Below, in pieces: positions 2,079 through 44,173 of a stretch of DNA of 64,000 nt. This DNA is from a virus. Numbering within the stretch: position 1 is the first letter of the stretch; every line of letters starts with the position of its first letter. The stretch covers positions 1-64,000 of the IMG/VR virus record IMGVR_UViG_3300018005_000012. One strand, written 5' to 3'. Made by a program: the position numbers and the translations under genes. The notes beneath the pieces were generated by a model. It ran no database searches. It worked only from the letters and a program-made list of their open reading frames with translations, and had not been told where the DNA came from.

Positions 2079-2309
2079 TTACCAACCAAACCTTTTCTTA
2101 TGTCGTCTATGTATGTCTTCTTTACACTTTTCCCCATGACATCTTTCACAAAGAAGTTGCATATTTTTCAAAGAAGTCTCTGAACCGCCCTCGCATACAG
2201 GTTTAATGTGGTCAAAATCAAATGGGCCTTTTTTGGTGTGACATCTAGCACACTCATTACCCAACTGTAAAGCGGCTAGTCTTCGTATGGTAACGTAAGT
2301 ATTAGCCAT
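2079..2309 (-). CDS. HNH endonuclease
   Basis: CARC...FDHIKPVCEGG...NMQLLCERCH motif. Confidence 0.85.
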   Translation of the reverse strand: MANTYVTIRRLAALQLGNECARCHTKKGPFDFDHIKPVCEGGSETSLKNMQLLCERCHGEKCKEDIHRRHKKRFGW

Positions 2310-3513: not shown

Positions 3514-3548
3514 ACACAGGGGTAGGAAGGTAGGGTTTATAAGGATTC

Positions 3549-3655
3549 TGACCCACCGTGGCTCGGAGCCTCTGAAGGGTGCACCCTTCGCTCATCCGGC
3601 CCCGGTCTCGTTTGAACAAGACTTTATGGTGGGCCTACCAGAGCCAGTGGGTTGA
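3549..3655 (-). ncRNA. Candidate four-way-junction RNA D (about 105 nt)
   Basis: TTTATATA at 3676-3683; closing stem ACCCAC+TGGCTC / GAGCCA+GTGGGT enclosing three hairpins, including the palindrome GAAGGGTGCACCCTTC. Confidence 0.6.
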
Positions 3656-3933
3656 CAGAGGGTAGGCTACCAGACTATATAAAGGTTTTCAACCGGATTC
3701 CTATTGTGTGGGCAAGCGTTTGGGTAGGCCCCAACAAATGAACAGTCCTTTATATATGTCTGGTAATCAGGGTGAACACCTACTTATAAGTAGTCTGCTA
3801 ATAGGGAGGTAGGTAGGTAGGCATACTGGATAAAGGTATGTATAGAAGCCCATGCGAACTGTGCTTTGCTATCTAAGGGGCCTCCCCACCCCTATATAAG
3901 GGTTCCTAGATTAACAATCCTTACTGTGGCTAC

Positions 3934-4033
3934 TGCAAAAGTTCCAATGGAAACACTGCATACTTGCACTGCGGCCATGTAAGACTTGTAAGTCGCCTTG
4001 CAATAGTTCCACTGGAAACACTGCATATTTGCA
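3934..4033. repeat. Two 35-bp direct repeats containing ORB-like cores
   Basis: TGCAAAAGTTCCAATGGAAACACTGCATACTTGCA and TGCAATAGTTCCACTGGAAACACTGCATATTTGCA, 65-nt period; partial copies at 4273-4290, 4365-4378 and 4676-4693. Confidence 0.85.
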
Positions 4034-4610
4034 AAGCCGCACCACAGTTCTTGCAACTTGCCCTACTATATAAAGGTTGTCATCCCTCGTCTGCCCCCTC
4101 TCTTATATAAAGTATCCTACCGAAATCCATAAGGGTGGCAGGCGTTTTCATGGCGACTGGCACGAACCTTTATATAGCCTACGATTGGGGGGCAAGCGGG
4201 GGCGGCAAGTGACAAAATGTTTATATAGCCTATAATTCGGGGGTAGGCGGGGGAACGAACAACTATATAAAGGTATCAATGGAAACACTGGTCTCACTTA
4301 TAAGGGTTAGGGGATATAGGGTATACCCTCGCAACTGGCGGTGGCTTTATATAGGCGACCTGCACTTCCGATGGAAACTTATGGAAACGCACAAACAATA
4401 GGGCGCAAGATAGGCATCACTTCATTGCTATTGCCCTCTATTGTAAGTGGGTTTGCAGATAGGATAGATGATAGATAGATACACCCTATTCAGATGATGT
4501 CACCCTACCCTAGTATGCAATACCCTACTCCACAACATAATGCAGACAGATGAAGGATGCAAGACTTATGAGATTCTTGGTGCGAGCCATGCAAGAATTA
4601 CATGGTTGGC

Positions 4611-4652
4611 TCAAGCCTAGTCAAGCCCTAGTCAGGCCCTAGTCAAGCCCTA
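4611..4652. repeat. Four tandem 10-11 bp iteron-like repeats
   Basis: TCAAGCCTAG TCAAGCCCTAG TCAGGCCCTAG TCAAGCCCTA. Confidence 0.9.
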
Positions 4653-4809
4653 CGACTGGTCGCATTTCCATACCACTTCCAACGGAAGCACTGGTTGTGA
4701 GCCGACCTTTATATAAGTCATGTTGCCGGAGGGATGGGTGCTTGAGGGAGGGGTATACGGTATATGGCAAGAAACTACATATCTAGTCCACGCCTATTAT
4801 ATTATTGAG

Positions 4810-4960
4810 GGACTGAGGACACCCAAATGGGTGGTGTGGGTTGACCCGTAATAACGGCAACGGCCCCACTTCAGAACCTTCCGAGTTTGGGAGACGCAGA
4901 CAGTGCGATAGGGTCGGGTCATTCCCGACTTAAACACTCGGTTAAAAAAATCTCCCATTT
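4810..4960 (+). ncRNA. Candidate structured leader or ncRNA ahead of the early operon
   Basis: Hairpins CACCCA-AA-TGGGTG, CCGT-AATA-ACGG, CGCA-GACAG-TGCG and GTCGGG-TCATT-CCCGAC; the last two lie inside the closing stem CCGAGT/ACTCGG. Confidence 0.4.
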
Positions 4961-4965
4961 TTGGC

Positions 4966-5394
4966 TTGAGGAATATGAACACAAATAACCCAAAGGGCGA
5001 GAGAGAACGACAGCCTTCCACCACGGCATTTTCTAGTAGTGGGAAGGGCAATGAAAGGTCGCACATACTCGTGGCCGTTCAAGAGTTGGGCATTCAGTTC
5101 GGTGGCCGACCTAACACCGTGAGGCGTGAGGTTCTCGTGGACATAGGCAATGCCAAGAACCAAGAGGACGCAGAGGTTAAGGCGAAGGCGAGAGCCGCTA
5201 AGAAGTGGCATACAAACGTGGTCTGTCTTCAAGTCTCAGCCGTCAGAATAGCCGAGCCAGTCAAACAAGTGTGGCGGGATTCAGCCGTGGACTCGCATTA
5301 TTCATACCCTGAGACGAAGACACCCAAGCCCGAACCCGTCCAGCAATTCGTTCAAGCAGGGCCTAACTTCTTCATAAAGGTGAGGACTGAGTAA
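4966..5394 (+). CDS. Hypothetical early protein
   Basis: First ORF of a tightly coupled rightward operon. Confidence 0.7.
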   Translation: MRNMNTNNPKGERERQPSTTAFSSSGKGNERSHILVAVQELGIQFGGRPNTVRREVLVDIGNAKNQEDAEVKAKARAAKKWHTNVVCLQVSAVRIAEPVKQVWRDSAVDSHYSYPETKTPKPEPVQQFVQAGPNFFIKVRTE

Positions 5395-12755: not shown

Positions 12756-13768
12756 TACTCAAACTCGGCTTCGGAGAGACCTGTGCTGTGAAAGAGTTAG
12801 AGTTGGCCCACGAAGAATTAGTAAACCACACTTCGCCAAATGAGCGAGACATTCAGACTTACGCATTGACTGAGACAGTCCGACTTCTCAACTTTAGAGT
12901 GCGGTGTATGTGTCATGATGTAAGATGTAATTGGTGGGACAGAGGGGCTTGTAGATGCAACGGGGCTTTGAATTGTCTACATATAGGCTTCGAGATAAGG
13001 AATACTGATGAAATAAATCTAATCACAGACGGGGAAACGGAAACGGCCAAGAGACAGATTCCTCAAGACCATTTGGAACGACAACCCAACGAAGCCTTCA
13101 TTGTTTGGAAGGTCAGGGTGGCTTACGAAGTCTACCAAAGGGCCAGTGAGATTCATAATATGCCAGAGGATGGCATAGTTCAGTATCGGTATGAGAATTG
13201 GAGAGAGGAACCCATTGACGAAAGACGCAACAACTTCGAGAGAACGGTGAACGATGTGAGAGGGATAGGGGTTGAGAGACATGGCAACATGAGCCAAGTG
13301 GTGGGTTGCTTCTCATGTGGCAGAATCTTCGAGAACGAAACCTATCTCAATGCTCATGTTGATTTGCACAGATACAGGGAAGAGGTTGACCACACCTTTG
13401 CACAAATAGTCACACCTATTTCCGTCTCTTCAGTAAGAGCAACTCCACCCGACTACCGACCACCTATCCCCGTTGTCGCACCCACACCCACACCAACAAG
13501 ACGGCCAAGAGCAATCCATCGTAGTCCCATACGAATTGACCAAATAGACCGAGAATCAGACGAGAGTGATGACCACTTTAGAGAGGCCGTTGCAAACTTC
13601 GTTGAAGACATTAGAGGTGGAGATGGAGACCGTGGCGAATTTCCAGAGGCAGTGGGTTGTTCCTTATGCGGTGCTGTCTACACAACTGAGAGCGACTACT
13701 TCGCCCATGCAGTTGATGACCACGTTCTCACCCTTTCAGAATCAGAGAGATATGAGGTAAACCCATGA
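12752..13768 (+). CDS. Multi-Zn-finger protein (two C2H2 fingers)
   Basis: CFSCGRIFENETYLNAHVDLH and CSLCGAVYTTESDYFAHAVDDH. Confidence 0.75.
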   Translation: MILKLGFGETCAVKELELAHEELVNHTSPNERDIQTYALTETVRLLNFRVRCMCHDVRCNWWDRGACRCNGALNCLHIGFEIRNTDEINLITDGETETAKRQIPQDHLERQPNEAFIVWKVRVAYEVYQRASEIHNMPEDGIVQYRYENWREEPIDERRNNFERTVNDVRGIGVERHGNMSQVVGCFSCGRIFENETYLNAHVDLHRYREEVDHTFAQIVTPISVSSVRATPPDYRPPIPVVAPTPTPTRRPRAIHRSPIRIDQIDRESDESDDHFREAVANFVEDIRGGDGDRGEFPEAVGCSLCGAVYTTESDYFAHAVDDHVLTLSESERYEVNP

Positions 13769-14550
13769 CCCCTCTCATTGTCTTCGTAGATTGTGGTCTC
13801 TCGCTCTCAGAAACGCCAGACCGCATTATCTCACGGCTTGAAGAGAAGGGACTAAGAGTTGTGAGGAATCCACGAGAGAGACCCACTGAAGACTATGTGG
13901 TGATTCGATGGGGGTCGGCCAGATTCCCTGAGTTGGATGCGACAGCGAAAGCCGTCCTCAACTCTGCCGAAGCCATCGAATCCAATCTCCATAAGAACAG
14001 GGCACACGCCAAATTTTTAGAGGCCGAAGTCAGTGCCCCGCTATTCTGGCGAACCTTTAGAGAGGCAAGAGAAGAGTGCCGAAGGTTAGGGTGCGACTTC
14101 CTGCGGAGACGCACACACCACATTCAGGGTCGGGACATCATTCGCCTAAGTCCTACTGACCACTTGAAACGTAGACAGAGAAGTGGATACTACGTTCAAT
14201 ACATAGAGAAGGATGCAGAGTTCAGACTTCACATCTTCGGAGACAAGTGCATAGGCTTGGCCGAAAAGAAGCCAAAGGAGAATCCTAACAAGACTATTTG
14301 GAACTTTGAAAATGGGTGGGATTTAGTCTACTACCCACAAGAGGATAGAGAGAGTGAGGTTCCCCACTACAACAAGATGGTGGCTGAATCGGTAAAGGCA
14401 TTGAAGAGTCTGGGTCTGGACTTTGGTGCGGTGGACTTGATAATGTGCGGAGACAAACCGTATATCCTAGAGGCTAACACGAGTCCTAAGTTGTATCAGA
14501 CCAAACGCTACACCAAGCATTTCGAGAGATGGGTGGAGAGCCAAGCATGA
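13765..14550 (+). CDS. ATP-grasp ligase (phage RimK/YheCD-like)
   Basis: VIRWG, VQYIEKDAEFRLH, LGLDFGAVD, YILEANTSP. Confidence 0.88.
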   Translation: MTPLIVFVDCGLSLSETPDRIISRLEEKGLRVVRNPRERPTEDYVVIRWGSARFPELDATAKAVLNSAEAIESNLHKNRAHAKFLEAEVSAPLFWRTFREAREECRRLGCDFLRRRTHHIQGRDIIRLSPTDHLKRRQRSGYYVQYIEKDAEFRLHIFGDKCIGLAEKKPKENPNKTIWNFENGWDLVYYPQEDRESEVPHYNKMVAESVKALKSLGLDFGAVDLIMCGDKPYILEANTSPKLYQTKRYTKHFERWVESQA

Positions 14551-34989: not shown

Positions 34990-35035
34990 GATTTTGCTTA
35001 GAATCTTTATATAGGTTGCTCACTAAGGGTAGCCG

Positions 35036-35995
35036 ATGAACATATCCAGAAAGACAGCAACACGAGTTCTTCCTTCACTCATAGTCGCAACTCTACTTGT
35101 TCTGGCCATCATGATACCAGTAGTGTTGGCATGGAACGGAACCTGTAGCGAAACCTATCCATCAGACACTAACCTTGGCACAGCATCCGTATCAGCAAAC
35201 GGAATTTATCATGTTGTGCAAGGAGACCCATTCACAATTCCTAGTCTCACTGGTTGGTGTTGGAATCTGAATGTGAATGTGCCAACGAAGGGCACGACCA
35301 CAACCACAGTAACTTCGCCTACCACTACAACTAAGACGATGCCGACTACAGTGACGAGCACCGTTACTGGCCCAACAACAACTAAGACCGCTACAACAAC
35401 CCTTCCAGCAAATACAGTGACAAACACACAAACTTCTACAGAAACGCAAAGTGTCACTACAACTGAAACAGAGACCCTTCCGGTCACTACTACACAGACT
35501 CTTACACAGACTAGCACCGAAGTCCAGACTCAGAGTGTAACGCAAACTGAGACAACAACCGTAACTAACACGGTAACTGGTGAGGGTCAGAATGTGACTG
35601 AGACAGTAACAGAGACTAACACACAAGTTGTTCCTGTAGTAACGACTCAGACTGTTACAGAAACAACAACAGAGTTTGGTATTGGATTTGTTACTCAAGT
35701 GATAACAACGACTCTACCGAACCCGAACACTGTTACTCAGACCACAACTCAGACTAACACCCAACCGACCACAGTAACGGCACAAGGCCCAACGATAACA
35801 ACGACAGAACAGGGGCCGACTGGAACCGTAACACACACAGTCACACAAACTGTCACTCACACACCACTAACCACTCCTCCGCCCACTGGCAACTTCCCCA
35901 TCTTAGGACTTCCGTTCCTAGTATGGCTTTGGGTATTGGTGGCTGGCGGCTGTGGTATCGTCATAGGTTACACCGTCACACGGAAGAAACCGTAA
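35036..35995 (+). CDS. Thr-rich mucin-like membrane-anchored surface protein
   Basis: Signal peptide, about 200 aa of T/V/E/Q repeats, C-terminal TM helix plus RKKP. Confidence 0.85.
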   Translation: MNISRKTATRVLPSLIVATLLVLAIMIPVVLAWNGTCSETYPSDTNLGTASVSANGIYHVVQGDPFTIPSLTGWCWNLNVNVPTKGTTTTTVTSPTTTTKTMPTTVTSTVTGPTTTKTATTTLPANTVTNTQTSTETQSVTTTETETLPVTTTQTLTQTSTEVQTQSVTQTETTTVTNTVTGEGQNVTETVTETNTQVVPVVTTQTVTETTTEFGIGFVTQVITTTLPNPNTVTQTTTQTNTQPTTVTAQGPTITTTEQGPTGTVTHTVTQTVTHTPLTTPPPTGNFPILGLPFLVWLWVLVAGGCGIVIGYTVTRKKP

Positions 35996-40047: not shown

Positions 40048-41028
40048 ATGAAATTCCTCGAATTAGACGAACCCATGATACCATACATCTGTATGGGAAC
40101 CTGCGGTAAGAAGCAGGCCGGAAAGAGCCTCTACTCTCGTGAGTTGGGCTATAAGATAATCAAAGAAGAGGGGGGCGAAATTCTATGGCTGTCCACCGAA
40201 GAGCCTACTGACTTCATGTTCACCATCGAGATTGAAGAGCATGAGGGGTGGGATAAGGTCTTCGCTAAGAAGTATGGTGTCGAACCTATCGTCCATTGGG
40301 AGTATCTTCCGAATGCGGAAGAGGTCATGCGATACATCGGAGTGGATGGCAGAATCATCATTACTGAGGCAGAACCAGTCGAACCTAAACCTCTGAAAGA
40401 CATAAAGGGAGAGACACCAGAAGCGAGAGCAAAGAGAGAAGAGGAAGTCAAGAAAGCGGCAAACGACAGACAGAAGGGCATCAAGTTGGAGTTCAAGACC
40501 ATTAAGGTGGACACCGACCATTCGCCACTCGCCAAGATGCTGGAAGAGCACGACATCCGTTACATCGTTCTCGACTCCCTTACCACGCCATTCGACCAAC
40601 TCCTAATAGGTGGGAGACAGAACTTCGGCATCAGAGCACAACTTGAGGAAGCCTTCCTGAACACCACTCAACAGTTGGTCGTCAAGAGGGGCAAAGTGAC
40701 CAAAAAGAACATCTACGTCATGACCACCAATCACATCACCAACGACCCAACAGACCGTTTCACAAAACTGATGATTGAAAAGGAGTTAGTAGAGAAGGGT
40801 GGTGGGGCGGTGGGTTACAATCTCAAAGTCCTCTACGGCTTCAAACCAAAGCAAACGCCTCACGGTTCGAGAGAGGTCTGGGTGATAAGGTTCCCCAACC
40901 TACCGGACTATGGCAAGATGTATAACCTACTCATCACCAACAAGGGCTTCACCAAGACATCGAAAGACGAATTGAAGGATGTAAAAGAAGAGCAAAAGGC
41001 TGAGAGAAAAGAAGCGAAAGAAGCATGA
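40048..41028 (+). CDS. RadA/RadB-family recombinase ATPase
   Basis: GKKQAGKS, LWLSTEE, IVLDSLT, MTTNHI, GGGAVGY. Confidence 0.8.
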   Translation: MKFLELDEPMIPYICMGTCGKKQAGKSLYSRELGYKIIKEEGGEILWLSTEEPTDFMFTIEIEEHEGWDKVFAKKYGVEPIVHWEYLPNAEEVMRYIGVDGRIIITEAEPVEPKPLKDIKGETPEARAKREEEVKKAANDRQKGIKLEFKTIKVDTDHSPLAKMLEEHDIRYIVLDSLTTPFDQLLIGGRQNFGIRAQLEEAFLNTTQQLVVKRGKVTKKNIYVMTTNHITNDPTDRFTKLMIEKELVEKGGGAVGYNLKVLYGFKPKQTPHGSREVWVIRFPNLPDYGKMYNLLITNKGFTKTSKDELKDVKEEQKAERKEAKEA

Positions 41029-41180
41029 CTCAATTAGCCAATGAAAAGGAGTTGGAAAAGGCACGAGAGTCATCAGTAGAGTTGTTGGATAGAGAGGCTC
41101 GTCTCCAACTTCTAAAGGACAACCTAAACGAAATCAAAAGGAGAGTAGAAATAAGACATGAGCAACTTAGACAAGTTTAA
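41025..41180 (+). CDS. 51-aa coiled-coil protein with LANxxEL motif (not in ORF track)
   Basis: ATGA overlap with the RadA-like stop; MTQLANEKELEKARESS... Confidence 0.7.
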   Translation: MTQLANEKELEKARESSVELLDREARLQLLKDNLNEIKRRVEIRHEQLRQV

Positions 41181-41559
41181 TACAGCCAACTTCAAGGCCC
41201 AATTCCATACGGAAGGGGAATACACCGGAAGCGGAGACATGGGCGGCAGTTACGAGTATATCGCCAAACTCCTGCTCAATCCTGTATCGGATGGTCGGAA
41301 CAGACTCCTATGGTTGGTTCTGGCTCCCTATGCTGTATCCATCCTCAAACTGGATAGAGAGAAGGCCATAGACTTGGTGACAGAATACATAAAAGCCTGT
41401 CACGAACTCAAACCCTGTCAGGATGTGATTGATAAGGTGGAGCAATATGTGGACAATGCGGCAAACGTGGAGAACGGATTAAAGCCGCCTCACTTGGATA
41501 CTCTCCAACAGAGCGACCCAGAACTATATGAGATAGTTCAAGAGGCGATTAGAGAATGA
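41158..41559 (+). CDS. priX: PriX-like primase accessory subunit
   Basis: DGRNRLLWLVLAPYAVSILKL...AIDLVTEYI helical signature. Confidence 0.65.
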   Translation: MSNLDKFNTANFKAQFHTEGEYTGSGDMGGSYEYIAKLLLNPVSDGRNRLLWLVLAPYAVSILKLDREKAIDLVTEYIKACHELKPCQDVIDKVEQYVDNAANVENGLKPPHLDTLQQSDPELYEIVQEAIRE

Positions 41560-42081: not shown

Positions 42082-44173
42082 TGCGACCTATACCACACAG
42101 AACGGGAAGGTCAAGATGAAGGTCTATAGGAATGGAGAGGTCGAACTCATAGACCCCACACCCATGCCCTACTGTTACGCCCCGGCCAAGTATGAGATTC
42201 AGACGCAAGCCAAGATGACGAGAACAGACTTCAGGACTTTCGATACGGGAGAGGGCGTGAAGAGATACACCTTCCCACAGCCTATGAACGTAAAGGCGTT
42301 CCGTTCATTCCAAGAGGCGAAGGGCATTCCTATCTATGAAGCCGACAAAAAGTATGTTGGAGTTTGGATGGCAGACAATGAGTTCGTATGCGATGACTAT
42401 CCTAACCAAGCCGCATGGGACACAGAAGAAGACGACTCGAAAGCCAAGCCCGACCCAGAGACGGCCAACGTTCCAATCACAGCCATAGGCATAGTCTATA
42501 AGGGCCAGAGGTATGCGTGGACTGGTATAGAGAAGGAGATTCTTAAGGGGGCAGTGGACTTCATAGTGGAGAACAAGATTCATATGTTGAAGGGTTGGAA
42601 CACCCACTTCTGGGACGTTCCTTTCTTCGCCAAACGACTGGCCTTTGCGGGTATCAAATTCGACTTCAGTTCCGTCAGGTTCCTAGACTTAGCCCTCTGC
42701 TATCGTTTCATGGAAAAGAACTTCCGAAGTCAGTGGTCGTTGGAGAAGGTAGGCAGACGACTGTTCAATGAGCAGAAGCCCTTCGTCAATACCAGACTCA
42801 GCACCCTACCGCCAGAGCAACTAAAGGAGAGGGTGTTGTGGGATGCGGAGATGACTAATAGGATAGACGATAAGAAGGGGTATACTGGGGTGGCTACACA
42901 ACTGGCCAAGCAGAGCCATATCTTTCCAGACCAGATATTCGGAATCCACCCCCTCAAGAAGTCCATCACCATTACTCCTGTCTTAGACCAATACTTTCTG
43001 CGGTATGCCCATAAGATTAACTATGTATTACCATGTAAGTCGGGGTATAAGCAGAGGCCAAAATATACAGGAGCATGGGTCGAAGTCTTCGAGCAAGGGT
43101 TCTTTGAGGATGTGCTACAGTATGATGTAGACTCCCTATATCCCAACATCATCCTAGCGTATAAGTTGGCCCCATTGAACAGGTTCGAGTTGGTGGAACC
43201 TATCGTCAAAGACCTGCTTGCTGGCAAGCGAAACGCTAAAGACGAGGTAGAGAGATGGGCTATGAAAATCACGGTCAATGCCCTGTATGGTCTCTTCGCT
43301 AGTTCTTACTACAGATTTAAGGCCGTAGAGGTGGCAGATGCTATAACCTACCACGGAAGGGACATCGTTACCCATACAGCAGAGTTCCTAAGAAGTATGG
43401 GTTATACGGTCTACTACATAGATACGGACTCTTGCTTCGTGAAGGGTAAGTTCGATGAGGCGGAGACTATAAGAGACCTGATGAACACTTATATTCAGAG
43501 GACATACAACGTGGACAATATCAAGTTCGGGTTGGAGAACGATTGGAGGCTGCTCGGATTCCCAAGAGGAGCCAAAGGAGAGAAGACCAAGAAGCGTTAC
43601 TATGGTATAGTCCATGTCAACAAGAAGGGTGAAGTGGTGGACAAGTTTGAAGAGGCTGGCATGGAAGGGTTGCGTGGAGATTGGTGCGAGTTGGCGAGGA
43701 ACGTGCAAGACGCAATCAAGAGGTTCCAAGTCACAAAGGTTCCGAAGGAGAAGATGCTTGAGTTCTATGAGGATACGAAAGTCAACTTATACAAAGGACT
43801 CTACGACCCCCTTCTGGTTATGGAGAAACATATGGGGAAGGATGTCTCAGAGTATGGTCAAATGAAGAAGGATGAGAAGACGGGGAAGATAAGAAAGATG
43901 CCCACCCCACAACACGTTAAGGCTTTGCGAGATGCGATGGAACATGGATGGGTTCCCAACGATATGGTTCAGTATGGTGTGGTTCAATACTATATGTGTA
44001 GAGGAGCCATACCCAAACTGGTCAATCTAGTGAAGCAGGGTGAGATAGACTATGCTTGGTATTGTAGTCACCAGATAGACCCCATAGTGTGGAGACTTGG
44101 CCTCATCGAAGAGATGACCAAGTATAAGAAGGAGAAGGTTCAGCCATCAGACCAAACAACTCTTGTTTCTTGA
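42059..44173 (+). CDS. polB: Family B DNA polymerase with 3'-5' exonuclease
   Basis: WDTE, GWNTHFWD, YDVDSLYPNII, KITVNALYG, YIDTDS. Confidence 0.96.
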   Translation: MELIPFDSATYTTQNGKVKMKVYRNGEVELIDPTPMPYCYAPAKYEIQTQAKMTRTDFRTFDTGEGVKRYTFPQPMNVKAFRSFQEAKGIPIYEADKKYVGVWMADNEFVCDDYPNQAAWDTEEDDSKAKPDPETANVPITAIGIVYKGQRYAWTGIEKEILKGAVDFIVENKIHMLKGWNTHFWDVPFFAKRLAFAGIKFDFSSVRFLDLALCYRFMEKNFRSQWSLEKVGRRLFNEQKPFVNTRLSTLPPEQLKERVLWDAEMTNRIDDKKGYTGVATQLAKQSHIFPDQIFGIHPLKKSITITPVLDQYFLRYAHKINYVLPCKSGYKQRPKYTGAWVEVFEQGFFEDVLQYDVDSLYPNIILAYKLAPLNRFELVEPIVKDLLAGKRNAKDEVERWAMKITVNALYGLFASSYYRFKAVEVADAITYHGRDIVTHTAEFLRSMGYTVYYIDTDSCFVKGKFDEAETIRDLMNTYIQRTYNVDNIKFGLENDWRLLGFPRGAKGEKTKKRYYGIVHVNKKGEVVDKFEEAGMEGLRGDWCELARNVQDAIKRFQVTKVPKEKMLEFYEDTKVNLYKGLYDPLLVMEKHMGKDVSEYGQMKKDEKTGKIRKMPTPQHVKALRDAMEHGWVPNDMVQYGVVQYYMCRGAIPKLVNLVKQGEIDYAWYCSHQIDPIVWRLGLIEEMTKYKKEKVQPSDQTTLVS

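What the first reader, a model, noticed from the sequence alone, without database searches (positions are those of the whole stretch)
3934..4693. ORB-like boxes: viral origin that may recruit host Orc1/Cdc6
GTTCCAATGGAAAC (3941), GTTCCACTGGAAAC (4006; its reverse complement contains TTCCAGTGGAA), GTATCAATGGAAAC (4273), CTTCCGATGGAAAC (4365) and CTTCCAACGGAAGC (4676) match the core of archaeal origin recognition boxes (TTCCAGTGGAAAC-like). They lack the adjoining G-string, as mini-ORBs do. They lie in the only large non-coding gap, at the strand switch. No orc1/cdc6 gene is in this window, so the virus may use or titrate the host initiator.
Basis: partly seen in the sequence, partly recalled or inferred. 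Interest (0 to 1): 0.7.

Follow-up and report, generated by a model that had tools for sequence, protein, structure and literature searches.

The report
Host-type origin boxes in archaeal virus
The largest gene-free stretch of this roughly 105-kb tailed archaeal virus holds a conserved cluster of the short DNA boxes that archaeal cells use to mark replication start sites, and because the virus has no gene for the protein that reads them or for a replicative helicase, it probably borrows both from its host; this has not been tested at the bench.

Summary
All five boxes are at the stated coordinates. Two of them match the published 14-bp ORB core at 13 of 14 positions, and they are the only such matches in 64 kb.

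The cluster lies in the largest non-coding gap (3514-4974), at the main strand switch. It is conserved at the same syntenic place in four further virus lineages, while the surrounding sequence diverges. The right half, TGGAA(A/G)C, is almost invariant and the left half degenerates, as in cellular ORBs. Two relatives carry a full ORB with a G-string.

No Orc1/Cdc6, MCM or other tested helicase family was found in this genome or in two complete relatives. The virus does encode PolB, PriX, and RecJ/Cdc45-like and RadA-like proteins. The same extended box occurs in unrelated, Orc1-less viruses of about 12 kb, which argues for a host reader.

There are caveats. No AT-rich unwinding element is present. 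The G0 boxes are all direct repeats. The boxes are interleaved with about ten strong TATA boxes, and about a third of the boxes put the predicted transcription start inside TGGAAAC. A transcription-operator role therefore remains a serious rival.

Earlier notes of this scan describe similar ORB arrays in other Orc1-less virus-like elements.

The parts
3514..4974 (.). Largest non-coding gap of the genome. It is the divergent control region between the leftward and rightward gene blocks.
   Evidence: ORF maps and strand blocks. The syntenic gap is present in G1, G2, G3 and G4.
3941..3954 (+). Box 1, GTTCCAATGGAAAC. It matches the published ORB core at 13 of 14 positions.
   Evidence: It lies inside a 42-nt duplicated unit, 3934-3975 (D5).
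4006..4019 (+). Box 2, GTTCCACTGGAAAC. It matches the ORB core at 13 of 14 positions and is palindromic.
   Evidence: This is the second copy of the 42-nt unit, 3999-4040.
4273..4292 (+). Box 3, GTATCAATGGAAAC, plus the ACTGGT flank (a short G element). It abuts a leftward TATA box at 4264-4271.
4365..4388 (+). Box 4, CTTCCGATGGAAAC, followed by a second TGGAAAC half-site at 4382-4388. Its right half starts 26 nt after the TATA box at 4346.
4676..4695 (+). Box 5, CTTCCAACGGAAGC, plus the ACTGGT flank. It is the most degenerate box and is collinear with the palindromic last box of G1.
3676..4715 (.). Array of archaeal TATA boxes (TTTATATA and variants) in both orientations. On the + strand: 3749, 4169, 4220, 4346, 4708. 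On the - strand: 3676, 4067, 4104, 4264; a variant lies at about 3893.
   Evidence: 9 of the 13 in the window (17 in the genome) lie here against 1.3 expected in the window; binomial p 1.5e-12. The same enrichment is seen in G1 and G2.
3867..3926 (-). Conserved anchor, TGCTATC-N46-CTTACTG. It looks like a leftward promoter and transcript start, and box 1 lies just behind it.
   Evidence: The spacing is 46-47 nt in all five lineages. No consensus RNA fold was found.
4372..4462 (+). Long hairpin with arms at 4382-4408 and 4431-4457, immediately downstream of the TATA box at 4346 and box 4. It is a candidate small RNA or DNA cruciform.
   Evidence: I1. RNA fold z-score is -3.3 on the + strand and -2.3 on the - strand. 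The homologous G1 segment also forms a hairpin with a different stem sequence.
4611..4652 (.). 11-bp tandem repeat, 3.9 copies (TCAAGCCCTAG), just upstream of box 5. It is specific to this lineage.
   Evidence: It is not present in G1.
3549..3655 (-). Structured small-RNA candidate downstream of the leftward TATA box at 3676-3683.
   Evidence: Fold z-score -3.5. Also noted earlier in the scan.
41158..41559 (+). PriX-like primase subunit, in the viral replication module with PolB (42116-44173) and a RadA/RadB-like P-loop protein (40048-41025).
   Evidence: PF18689, E 3e-12. NF033412, 70 bits against a cut-off of 50. PolB. Walker A motif and weak RadA/RadB matches.

Best explanation
The gap 3514-4974 is the replication and control hub of the virus. 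Its TTCCA-N-TGGAAAC boxes are origin recognition boxes of the archaeal Orc1/Cdc6 type.

The virus has no initiator and no recognisable replicative helicase. The inferred mechanism is that the host's Orc1/Cdc6 binds the box cluster and loads the host MCM there. The viral PriX-containing primase, PolB and a RecJ/Cdc45-like protein would then take over DNA synthesis.

The interleaved strong promoters probably stand in for the missing AT-rich unwinding element, or they couple origin firing to early transcription.

What is shown: the identity, clustering, conservation and asymmetry of the boxes; the absence of viral orc1, mcm and the tested helicase families; and the presence of the same box in unrelated viruses. 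What is inferred: Orc1 binding, MCM loading, and initiation at this site.
For: 1. Sequence match. Boxes 1 and 2 match the published ORB core GTTCCAGTGGAAAC at 13 of 14 positions. The archaeal consensus is CTTCCAGTGGAAACGAAAGGGGT, and cellular Methanomassiliicoccales ORBs show the same left-half variants (TTGCA, TTACA) with an invariant TGGAAA.

2. Conservation. The cluster is conserved at the same syntenic place in G1, G2, G3 and G4. Flanking genes there are only 43-66% identical at the protein level, and the inter-box DNA diverges. Boxes with a left half matching at 4 of 5 or better are nearly confined to this gap in genomes of 91-105 kb.

3. Asymmetry. The right half is near-invariant, with rare single changes. 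The left half varies without compensation. This fits asymmetric protein recognition, not a hairpin or a symmetric dimer.

4. G-string. G3 and G4 carry GTTTCCAGTGGAAGCGGTGGGGGT, a full ORB with a G-string. It is inverted relative to a neighbouring box 41 bp away. Most other boxes have GG(T) starting 4 nt after the core.

5. Missing viral genes. No Cdc6_C, no TIGR02928 Orc1/Cdc6, no MCM, and no AAA_25, ResIII or VapE helicase families were found in G0 or in two complete relatives with terminal repeats.

6. Viral replication genes present. The virus encodes PolB, PriX, a RecJ-family (archaeal Cdc45/GAN-like) protein and a RadA/RadB-like protein.

7. Recurrence in other viruses. A scan of IMG/VR for two perfect cores 25-55 bp apart gave 47 stretches against about 2.5 expected. 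Among them are near-complete viruses of about 12 kb whose non-coding gaps hold boxes with the same TGGAAAY-NNN-GGT extension. Nine tested contigs lack Orc1/Cdc6. They share no protein with this virus except a lectin domain.

8. GC skew. The cumulative GC-skew minimum of the complete G1 genome falls at the right edge of the region.
Against: - There is no AT-rich unwinding element. The region is 52% AT against 53.6% for the genome, and the best 40-nt window is 70% AT.
- All five G0 boxes are direct repeats. Clear inverted pairs are seen only in relatives.
- The G-string is vestigial in G0.
- GC skew is confounded by the strand switch, and in G2 the minimum lies about 3 kb away.
- Eight of 26 orientation-specific boxes across the lineages lie with TGGAAAC exactly 26-27 nt after a same-strand TATA start, at the predicted transcription start. 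This is what an operator would look like.
- The RadA-like gene allows recombination-dependent replication without an origin.
- A single mini-ORB binds Cdc6 only weakly in Pyrococcus (PMC1904270).
- The host is unknown, so its ORBs could not be compared.
- A very divergent viral initiator or helicase among the many unannotated proteins cannot be excluded.
Confidence: 0.5

Rival explanations
1. The boxes are operators of a transcription regulator, viral or host. This might even be a non-initiator Orc1 paralogue. The regulator would switch the dense promoter array on or off (small RNAs and early genes), and the boxes would play no direct part in replication initiation.
For: - About ten strong TATA boxes are interleaved with the boxes.
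- In 8 of 26 cases TGGAAAC starts exactly 26-27 nt after a same-strand TATA start. In this virus that is where leaderless genes start; for example, the TATA at 35006 precedes the ATG at 35036.
- G2, G3 and G4 share tandem box-TATA-box units with a 41-44 bp period.
- Structured RNA candidates follow some of these promoters.
Against: - Most boxes have no promoter at a fixed distance.
- Conservation of the half-sites is asymmetric, unlike a symmetric dimer operator.
- No DNA-binding regulator gene was recognised next to the region.
- The same extended box occurs in unrelated viruses that share no regulator, and there it is not phased with TATA boxes.
- The motif is the published ORB, including a G-string in G3 and G4.
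Confidence: 0.27
2. The cluster is a decoy that titrates the host Orc1/Cdc6 away from the host oriC. This would shut down host replication rather than start viral replication.
For: There are many ORB-like sites on a genome that multiplies in the cell, and no viral initiator. A downstream ORB cluster that negatively regulates an origin has been proposed in Haloarcula (PMC4010727).
Against: Five weak sites per genome make a small sink. The arrangement and synteny are conserved like a cis-acting origin or promoter hub. The virus still needs a helicase loaded from somewhere.
Confidence: 0.07
3. The boxes act at the RNA level. They would be 5' ends or small hairpins of the non-coding transcripts made from the promoter array.
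For: The predicted start sites fall inside some boxes. Two structured RNA candidates lie in the gap.
Against: Left-half changes are never compensated in the right half, so pairing is not maintained. The transcript that would carry boxes 1 and 2 does not fold better than shuffled sequence, z -0.9. Most boxes lack a promoter in register.
Confidence: 0.06
4. The boxes are a terminase recognition (pac/cos) site, or a chance cluster.
For: It is a repeat cluster in a non-coding region of a tailed virus.
Against: The terminal repeats of the complete G1 and G2 genomes lie about 30 kb and about 13 kb from the region, at non-equivalent places. terL is 55 kb away. Chance is excluded by the shuffles and by conservation in five lineages.
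Confidence: 0.02

Closest known systems
Cellular archaeal oriC1-type origins: ORB and mini-ORB repeats bound by Orc1/Cdc6 (Pyrococcus oriC, Sulfolobus oriC1 and oriC2, Haloferax oriC1, paired ORBs of Methanomassiliicoccales)
   Same: - The same core, TTCCA-N-TGGAAAC, with the same left-half degeneracy.
- A G element on the 3' side.
- A cluster of 4-6 sites in a long intergenic region between divergent genes.
- Inverted pairs about 40 bp apart in relatives.

   Different: - No adjacent orc1/cdc6 gene.
- No AT-rich unwinding element.
- The G-string is mostly reduced to GG(T).
- The boxes in this genome are all direct repeats.
- Strong promoters are interleaved in register.
- It sits on a virus, not a chromosome.
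Replicator-initiator pairs of haloarchaeal chromosomes, megaplasmids and viruses (ORBs next to their own cdc6 gene)
   Same: Extrachromosomal or mobile replicons that use ORB-type sites (PMC4010727).
   Different: Those carry their own, origin-specific cdc6 gene. Here none was found in complete genomes.
Bacterial plasmid and phage origins that carry host DnaA boxes (for example P1 oriR, pSC101), and herpesvirus latent origins that recruit host ORC (from general knowledge, not tested here)
   Same: The logic is the same: a mobile genome displays binding sites for the host's own initiator.
   Different: Different proteins and motifs. Those elements usually also encode a Rep or tethering protein of their own.
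Transcription-activated or transcript-primed origins (T7 primary origin, T4 ori(uvsY), ColE1; from general knowledge)
   Same: Promoters without genes are embedded in the presumed origin.
   Different: No archaeal example is known to me. Here the promoters are phased with ORB-like boxes.

Membership tests
Archaeal Orc1/Cdc6-dependent (ORB-type) replication origin | Repeated ORB or mini-ORB core (TTCCAGTGGAAAC-like), clustered in an intergenic region | tested here: met
   There are five boxes, two of them 13 of 14 matches to the published core, and they are unique to this gap. They are conserved in five lineages.
Archaeal Orc1/Cdc6-dependent (ORB-type) replication origin | G-string 3' of the core (full ORB) | tested here: inconclusive
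   G0 has only GG(T) starting 4 nt after the core, in boxes 3 and 5. G3 and G4 have a full GGTGGGGGT string. Mini-ORBs without a G-string are accepted sites.
Archaeal Orc1/Cdc6-dependent (ORB-type) replication origin | AT-rich duplex unwinding element flanked by ORBs | tested here: not met
   The region is 52% AT against 53.6% for the genome, and the best 40-nt window is 70% AT. Only the 8-10 bp TATA boxes are AT-rich.
Archaeal Orc1/Cdc6-dependent (ORB-type) replication origin | ORBs in inverted orientation around the opening site | tested here: inconclusive
   All five G0 boxes are on the + strand. G2, G3 and G4 have inverted pairs 41 bp apart around a TATA box, and G1, G3 and G4 have a perfectly palindromic last box.
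Archaeal Orc1/Cdc6-dependent (ORB-type) replication origin | Initiator gene (orc1/cdc6 or whiP) next to the origin | tested here: not met
   No PF09079 or TIGR02928 match in G0, G1 or G2. The only hits are P-loop fragments in the HerA-like ATPase.
Archaeal Orc1/Cdc6-dependent (ORB-type) replication origin | Nucleotide-skew inflection at the site | tested here: inconclusive
   The cumulative GC-skew minimum is at the region's edge in G1 and about 3 kb away in G2. It is confounded by the strand switch of the genes.
Archaeal Orc1/Cdc6-dependent (ORB-type) replication origin | Specific Orc1/Cdc6 binding and mapped initiation | not testable with these tools
   This needs EMSA or ChIP, and marker-frequency or 2D-gel analysis in the unknown host.
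Operator array of a dimeric transcription regulator | Fixed position of the sites relative to promoters | tested here: inconclusive
   Eight of 26 oriented boxes have a TATA start exactly 26-27 nt upstream. The others have none within 60 nt, or one at another distance.
Operator array of a dimeric transcription regulator | Symmetric conservation of both half-sites, and a cognate regulator gene nearby | tested here: not met
   The right half is near-invariant and the left half is degenerate. No DNA-binding domain was found in ten flanking ORFs.

The most novel reading that the evidence does not exclude
This would be a transcription-coupled archaeal origin. An array of host-type ORBs is interleaved, in 41-44 bp register, with strong gene-less promoters that replace the AT-rich unwinding element. 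Promoter open complexes or short transcripts that start inside the ORB would open or prime the DNA. Host Orc1/Cdc6 would load host MCM for a virus that brings only its polymerase, primase subunit and a Cdc45-like factor. The same ORB 'password' is used by unrelated archaeal viruses.
Probability: 0.12. Interest if true: 0.8.

Novelty: new variant of a known kind. Interest (0 to 1): 0.6.

Why it matters
How archaeal viruses that lack an initiator start replication is largely unknown. Two viral studies that I read looked for classical ORBs and reported none.

A conserved ORB cluster on a large tailed virus with no Orc1, no MCM and no other recognisable helicase gives a concrete, testable model of initiator and helicase hijacking. 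The same extended box in unrelated small viruses strengthens that model.

The finding also gives a host-prediction handle, by matching the box to ORBs at candidate hosts' oriC. The phasing with promoters offers a natural system for asking how Orc1 binding and transcription initiation interact on the same DNA.

Tried and rejected
Longer contigs of the relatives found could therefore not be fetched.
- Both genome-contig scans gave nothing useful: no relative for A2, and only Bacteroides uS2 for the viral uS2. I got no handle on any archaeal genome and could not compare the boxes with ORBs of candidate hosts.
- The first metagenome scan with A1 found nothing.
- Single-motif scans of IMG/VR and the flanking 139-aa protein gave only chance hits or G1.
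I used the published consensus with mismatches instead.
- PHROGs gave almost no annotation. PolB has no close relative among deposited phages and archaeal viruses, 26% identity at most.
- Rfam and tRNA scans of the window were empty.
- The conserved anchor element has no supported RNA fold.
- I rejected the terminase-site and chance explanations, and the idea that the boxes are start codons of micro-ORFs, because the central base varies (ATG, CTG, GTG, TTG, ACG).

Full report
**What the window is.** The window is the first 64 kb of a 91.4-kb IMG/VR virus record (G0), which is linear and estimated 79% complete. It encodes a portal, a large terminase, a tail tube protein, a family B DNA polymerase and a HerA/A32-like ATPase. 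Promoters are of the archaeal TATA type, about 25-30 nt before the start codons. This is therefore a tailed virus of an archaeon. PolB has no close relative among deposited viruses.

**Check of the observation.**
- I scanned the window with the published euryarchaeal ORB core GTTCCAGTGGAAAC (Norais et al. 2007, PMC1868953). The only matches with at most 1 mismatch in 64 kb are at 3941 and 4006. Five of the 15 matches with at most 3 mismatches fall within 440 bp, and no shuffle out of 100 reached 15.
- TTCCNNTGGAAAC occurs three times in the whole genome, all here.
- The gap 3514-4974 is the largest non-coding stretch and lies at the main strand switch.

**Relatives.** A PolB search and a search with a gene 2 kb to the right of the gap found four related lineages:
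- G1: 105.7 kb, terminal repeats, complete.
- G2: 105.3 kb, complete.
- G3: a 13.5-kb fragment.
- G4: contigs of 49 kb and 20 kb.

The marker protein of G2 and G3 is only 43-44% identical to that of G0. In every lineage the syntenic gap starts with a conserved anchor (TGCTATC, 46-47 nt, CTTACTG). This is followed by three to five boxes with the consensus GTTT(C/G)CA-N-TGGAA(A/G)C, and the DNA between the boxes diverges. Boxes whose left half matches at 4 of 5 or better are nearly confined to this gap in genomes of 91-105 kb.

**Why the boxes look like ORBs.**
- The right half is almost always TGGAA(A/G)C. The left half degenerates to TTGCA, TTCGA, TTTCA and TATCA without any compensating change.
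- The cellular ORBs tabulated for Methanomassiliicoccales behave the same way (TTTGCAGTGGAAAT, ATTACAGTGGAAAT), next to the archaeal consensus CTTCCAGTGGAAACGAAAGGGGT (PMC4153887).
- This asymmetry argues against an RNA hairpin and against a symmetric dimer site. It fits the known asymmetric reading of ORBs by Orc1, which I state from general knowledge of the Orc1-DNA structures.
- In G3 and G4 the last box read on the minus strand is GTTTCCAGTGGAAGCGGTGGGGGT. That is a full ORB with a G-string, inverted relative to a box 41 bp away.
- Most other boxes carry a short G element, TGGAAAC-NNN-GG(T).

**Initiator and helicase.**
- Cdc6_C (PF09079), the full-length Orc1/Cdc6 model TIGR02928, MCM, AAA_25 (DnaB/RepA-like), ResIII and VapE/D5-like models found nothing in G0, G1 or G2. 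The only exception is P-loop fragments in the HerA-like ATPase.
- The 15 kb that G0 lacks relative to G1 holds structural genes.
- The virus does encode PolB, a confident PriX primase subunit (70 bits against a cut-off of 50), a RecJ-family protein of the archaeal Cdc45/GAN kind (weak match, below the curated cut-off), and a weakly RadA/RadB-like P-loop protein.
- A genome with a polymerase and primase parts but no helicase or initiator needs the host MCM, and MCM is loaded at ORBs by Orc1/Cdc6. This last step is inference.

**The same box in unrelated viruses.**
- A scan of IMG/VR for two perfect TTCCA-N-TGGAA cores 25-55 bp apart returned 47 stretches, against about 2.5 expected by my estimate.
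- Many of these are coding repeats.
- Several are non-coding arrays of boxes such as TTCCAGTGGAAACGTAGGT and TTCCATTGGAAATGAAGGT, in near-complete viruses of about 12 kb and other contigs. These carry the same TGGAAAY-NNN-GGT extension as in the G0 lineage.
- None of the nine contigs tested has an Orc1/Cdc6.
- Their proteins share nothing with G0, G1 or G2 except a lectin domain.
- One box shared by viruses with unrelated gene sets points to a reader supplied by the hosts.
- Earlier notes of this scan describe similar ORB arrays in other Orc1-less virus-like elements. I treat those as leads, not as evidence.

**What does not fit a canonical origin.**
- The gap is not AT-rich (52% against 53.6% for the genome), and its best 40-nt window reaches only 70% AT. 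There is no classical unwinding element.
- The five G0 boxes are all direct repeats.
- The cumulative GC-skew minimum falls at the region's edge in G1 but 3 kb away in G2, and the skew follows gene orientation anyway.
- The RadA-like gene leaves room for recombination-dependent replication.

**The promoter array.**
- Nine of the genome's 17 TTTATATA boxes lie in 3676-4715, in both orientations. G1 and G2 show the same enrichment.
- Across the lineages, 8 of 26 oriented boxes have a same-strand TATA start exactly 26-27 nt before TGGAAAC. That is where transcription should start, judging from the virus's own leaderless genes.
- G2, G3 and G4 share tandem box-TATA-box units with a 41-44 bp period.
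- In G0 the promoter at 4346 is followed by box 4 and then by a long hairpin at 4382-4457 (z -3.3). The G1 counterpart also forms a hairpin, with a different stem sequence.
- A further structured RNA candidate lies at 3549-3655 on the minus strand.
- The boxes are therefore physically coupled to transcription start sites. This can mean that Orc1 and the transcription machinery compete or cooperate at an origin. It can also mean that the boxes are operators. In the unrelated small viruses the boxes are not phased with TATA boxes, which favours a generic binding site recruited into promoters in this lineage.

**Verdict.** The ORB identity of the boxes is well supported by sequence, asymmetry, conservation and recurrence. 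Host-initiator use is the best explanation; I give it about 0.5. It is unproven, and a transcription-operator role (about 0.27) is the main rival. The terminase-site and chance explanations are rejected. In the literature I could search, two viral studies looked for ORBs and reported none. A conserved ORB cluster on an Orc1-less, MCM-less virus is therefore a new variant of a known kind.

Noticed in passing
window 3676-4715: Nine of the genome's 17 TTTATATA boxes, in both orientations, lie in about 1 kb without ORFs. Some form convergent pairs about 50 bp apart (4220 rightward and 4271 leftward). Two 51-bp tandem units at 4169 and 4220 consist of a TATA box plus G-runs.
   Followed up: partly
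window 4372-4462 (+); L014:2196-2290 (+): A long hairpin lies right after the promoter at 4346 and box 4 (z -3.3). The G1 counterpart also forms a hairpin although the stem sequence differs. It is a candidate small RNA or cruciform with TGGAAAC/GTTT(G/C)CA at its base.
   Followed up: partly
window 4611-4652: An 11-bp tandem repeat with 3.9 copies (one helical turn per unit) sits just upstream of box 5. It is absent from G1.
   Followed up: no
L020:14951-15310 (-) and L020:15568-16116 (-) (G1): In G1 the homologous gap has acquired a LAGLIDADG homing-endonuclease ORF (PF00961, E 3e-7) and a second 182-aa ORF with no Pfam match. The hub therefore tolerates insertions between the boxes. G0 has an HNH endonuclease at 2079-2309 (-).
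   Followed up: partly
window 41158-41559 (+); L004:12550-13737 (-): The virus carries a PriX primase subunit (above the NCBIfam cut-off) and a RecJ-family, archaeal Cdc45/GAN-like protein (weak match). From general knowledge, PriX is a Sulfolobus-type (TACK archaea) subunit, which is a clue to the host.
   Followed up: partly
window 3867-3926 and the syntenic places in G1-G4: TGCTATC and CTTACTG are kept exactly 46-47 nt apart in five lineages, although the sequence between them changes. No RNA fold is supported. It is probably a leftward promoter with an upstream element.
   Followed up: partly
L138:8900-9290; L121:2396-2778; L130:1800-1900; L131:1850-1930: Unrelated IMG/VR viruses, three of them about 12 kb and near-complete, carry non-coding arrays of ORB-like boxes with the same TGGAAAY-NNN-GGT extension and no Orc1/Cdc6.
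   Followed up: partly
window 4319-4330 and 4751-4765; L043:5505-5520; L044:4690-4705: A GGTATACC palindrome embedded in an ATATA-rich box lies about 20-25 nt before the first rightward gene in G1, G2 and G3. It occurs twice in G0, further upstream of that gene.
   Followed up: no
window 13765-14550 (+): A RimK-like 'ribosomal protein S6 glutaminyl transferase' match (phrog_2599, E 1e-32) lies at the end of the amidoligase / glutamine-amidotransferase operon.
   Followed up: no
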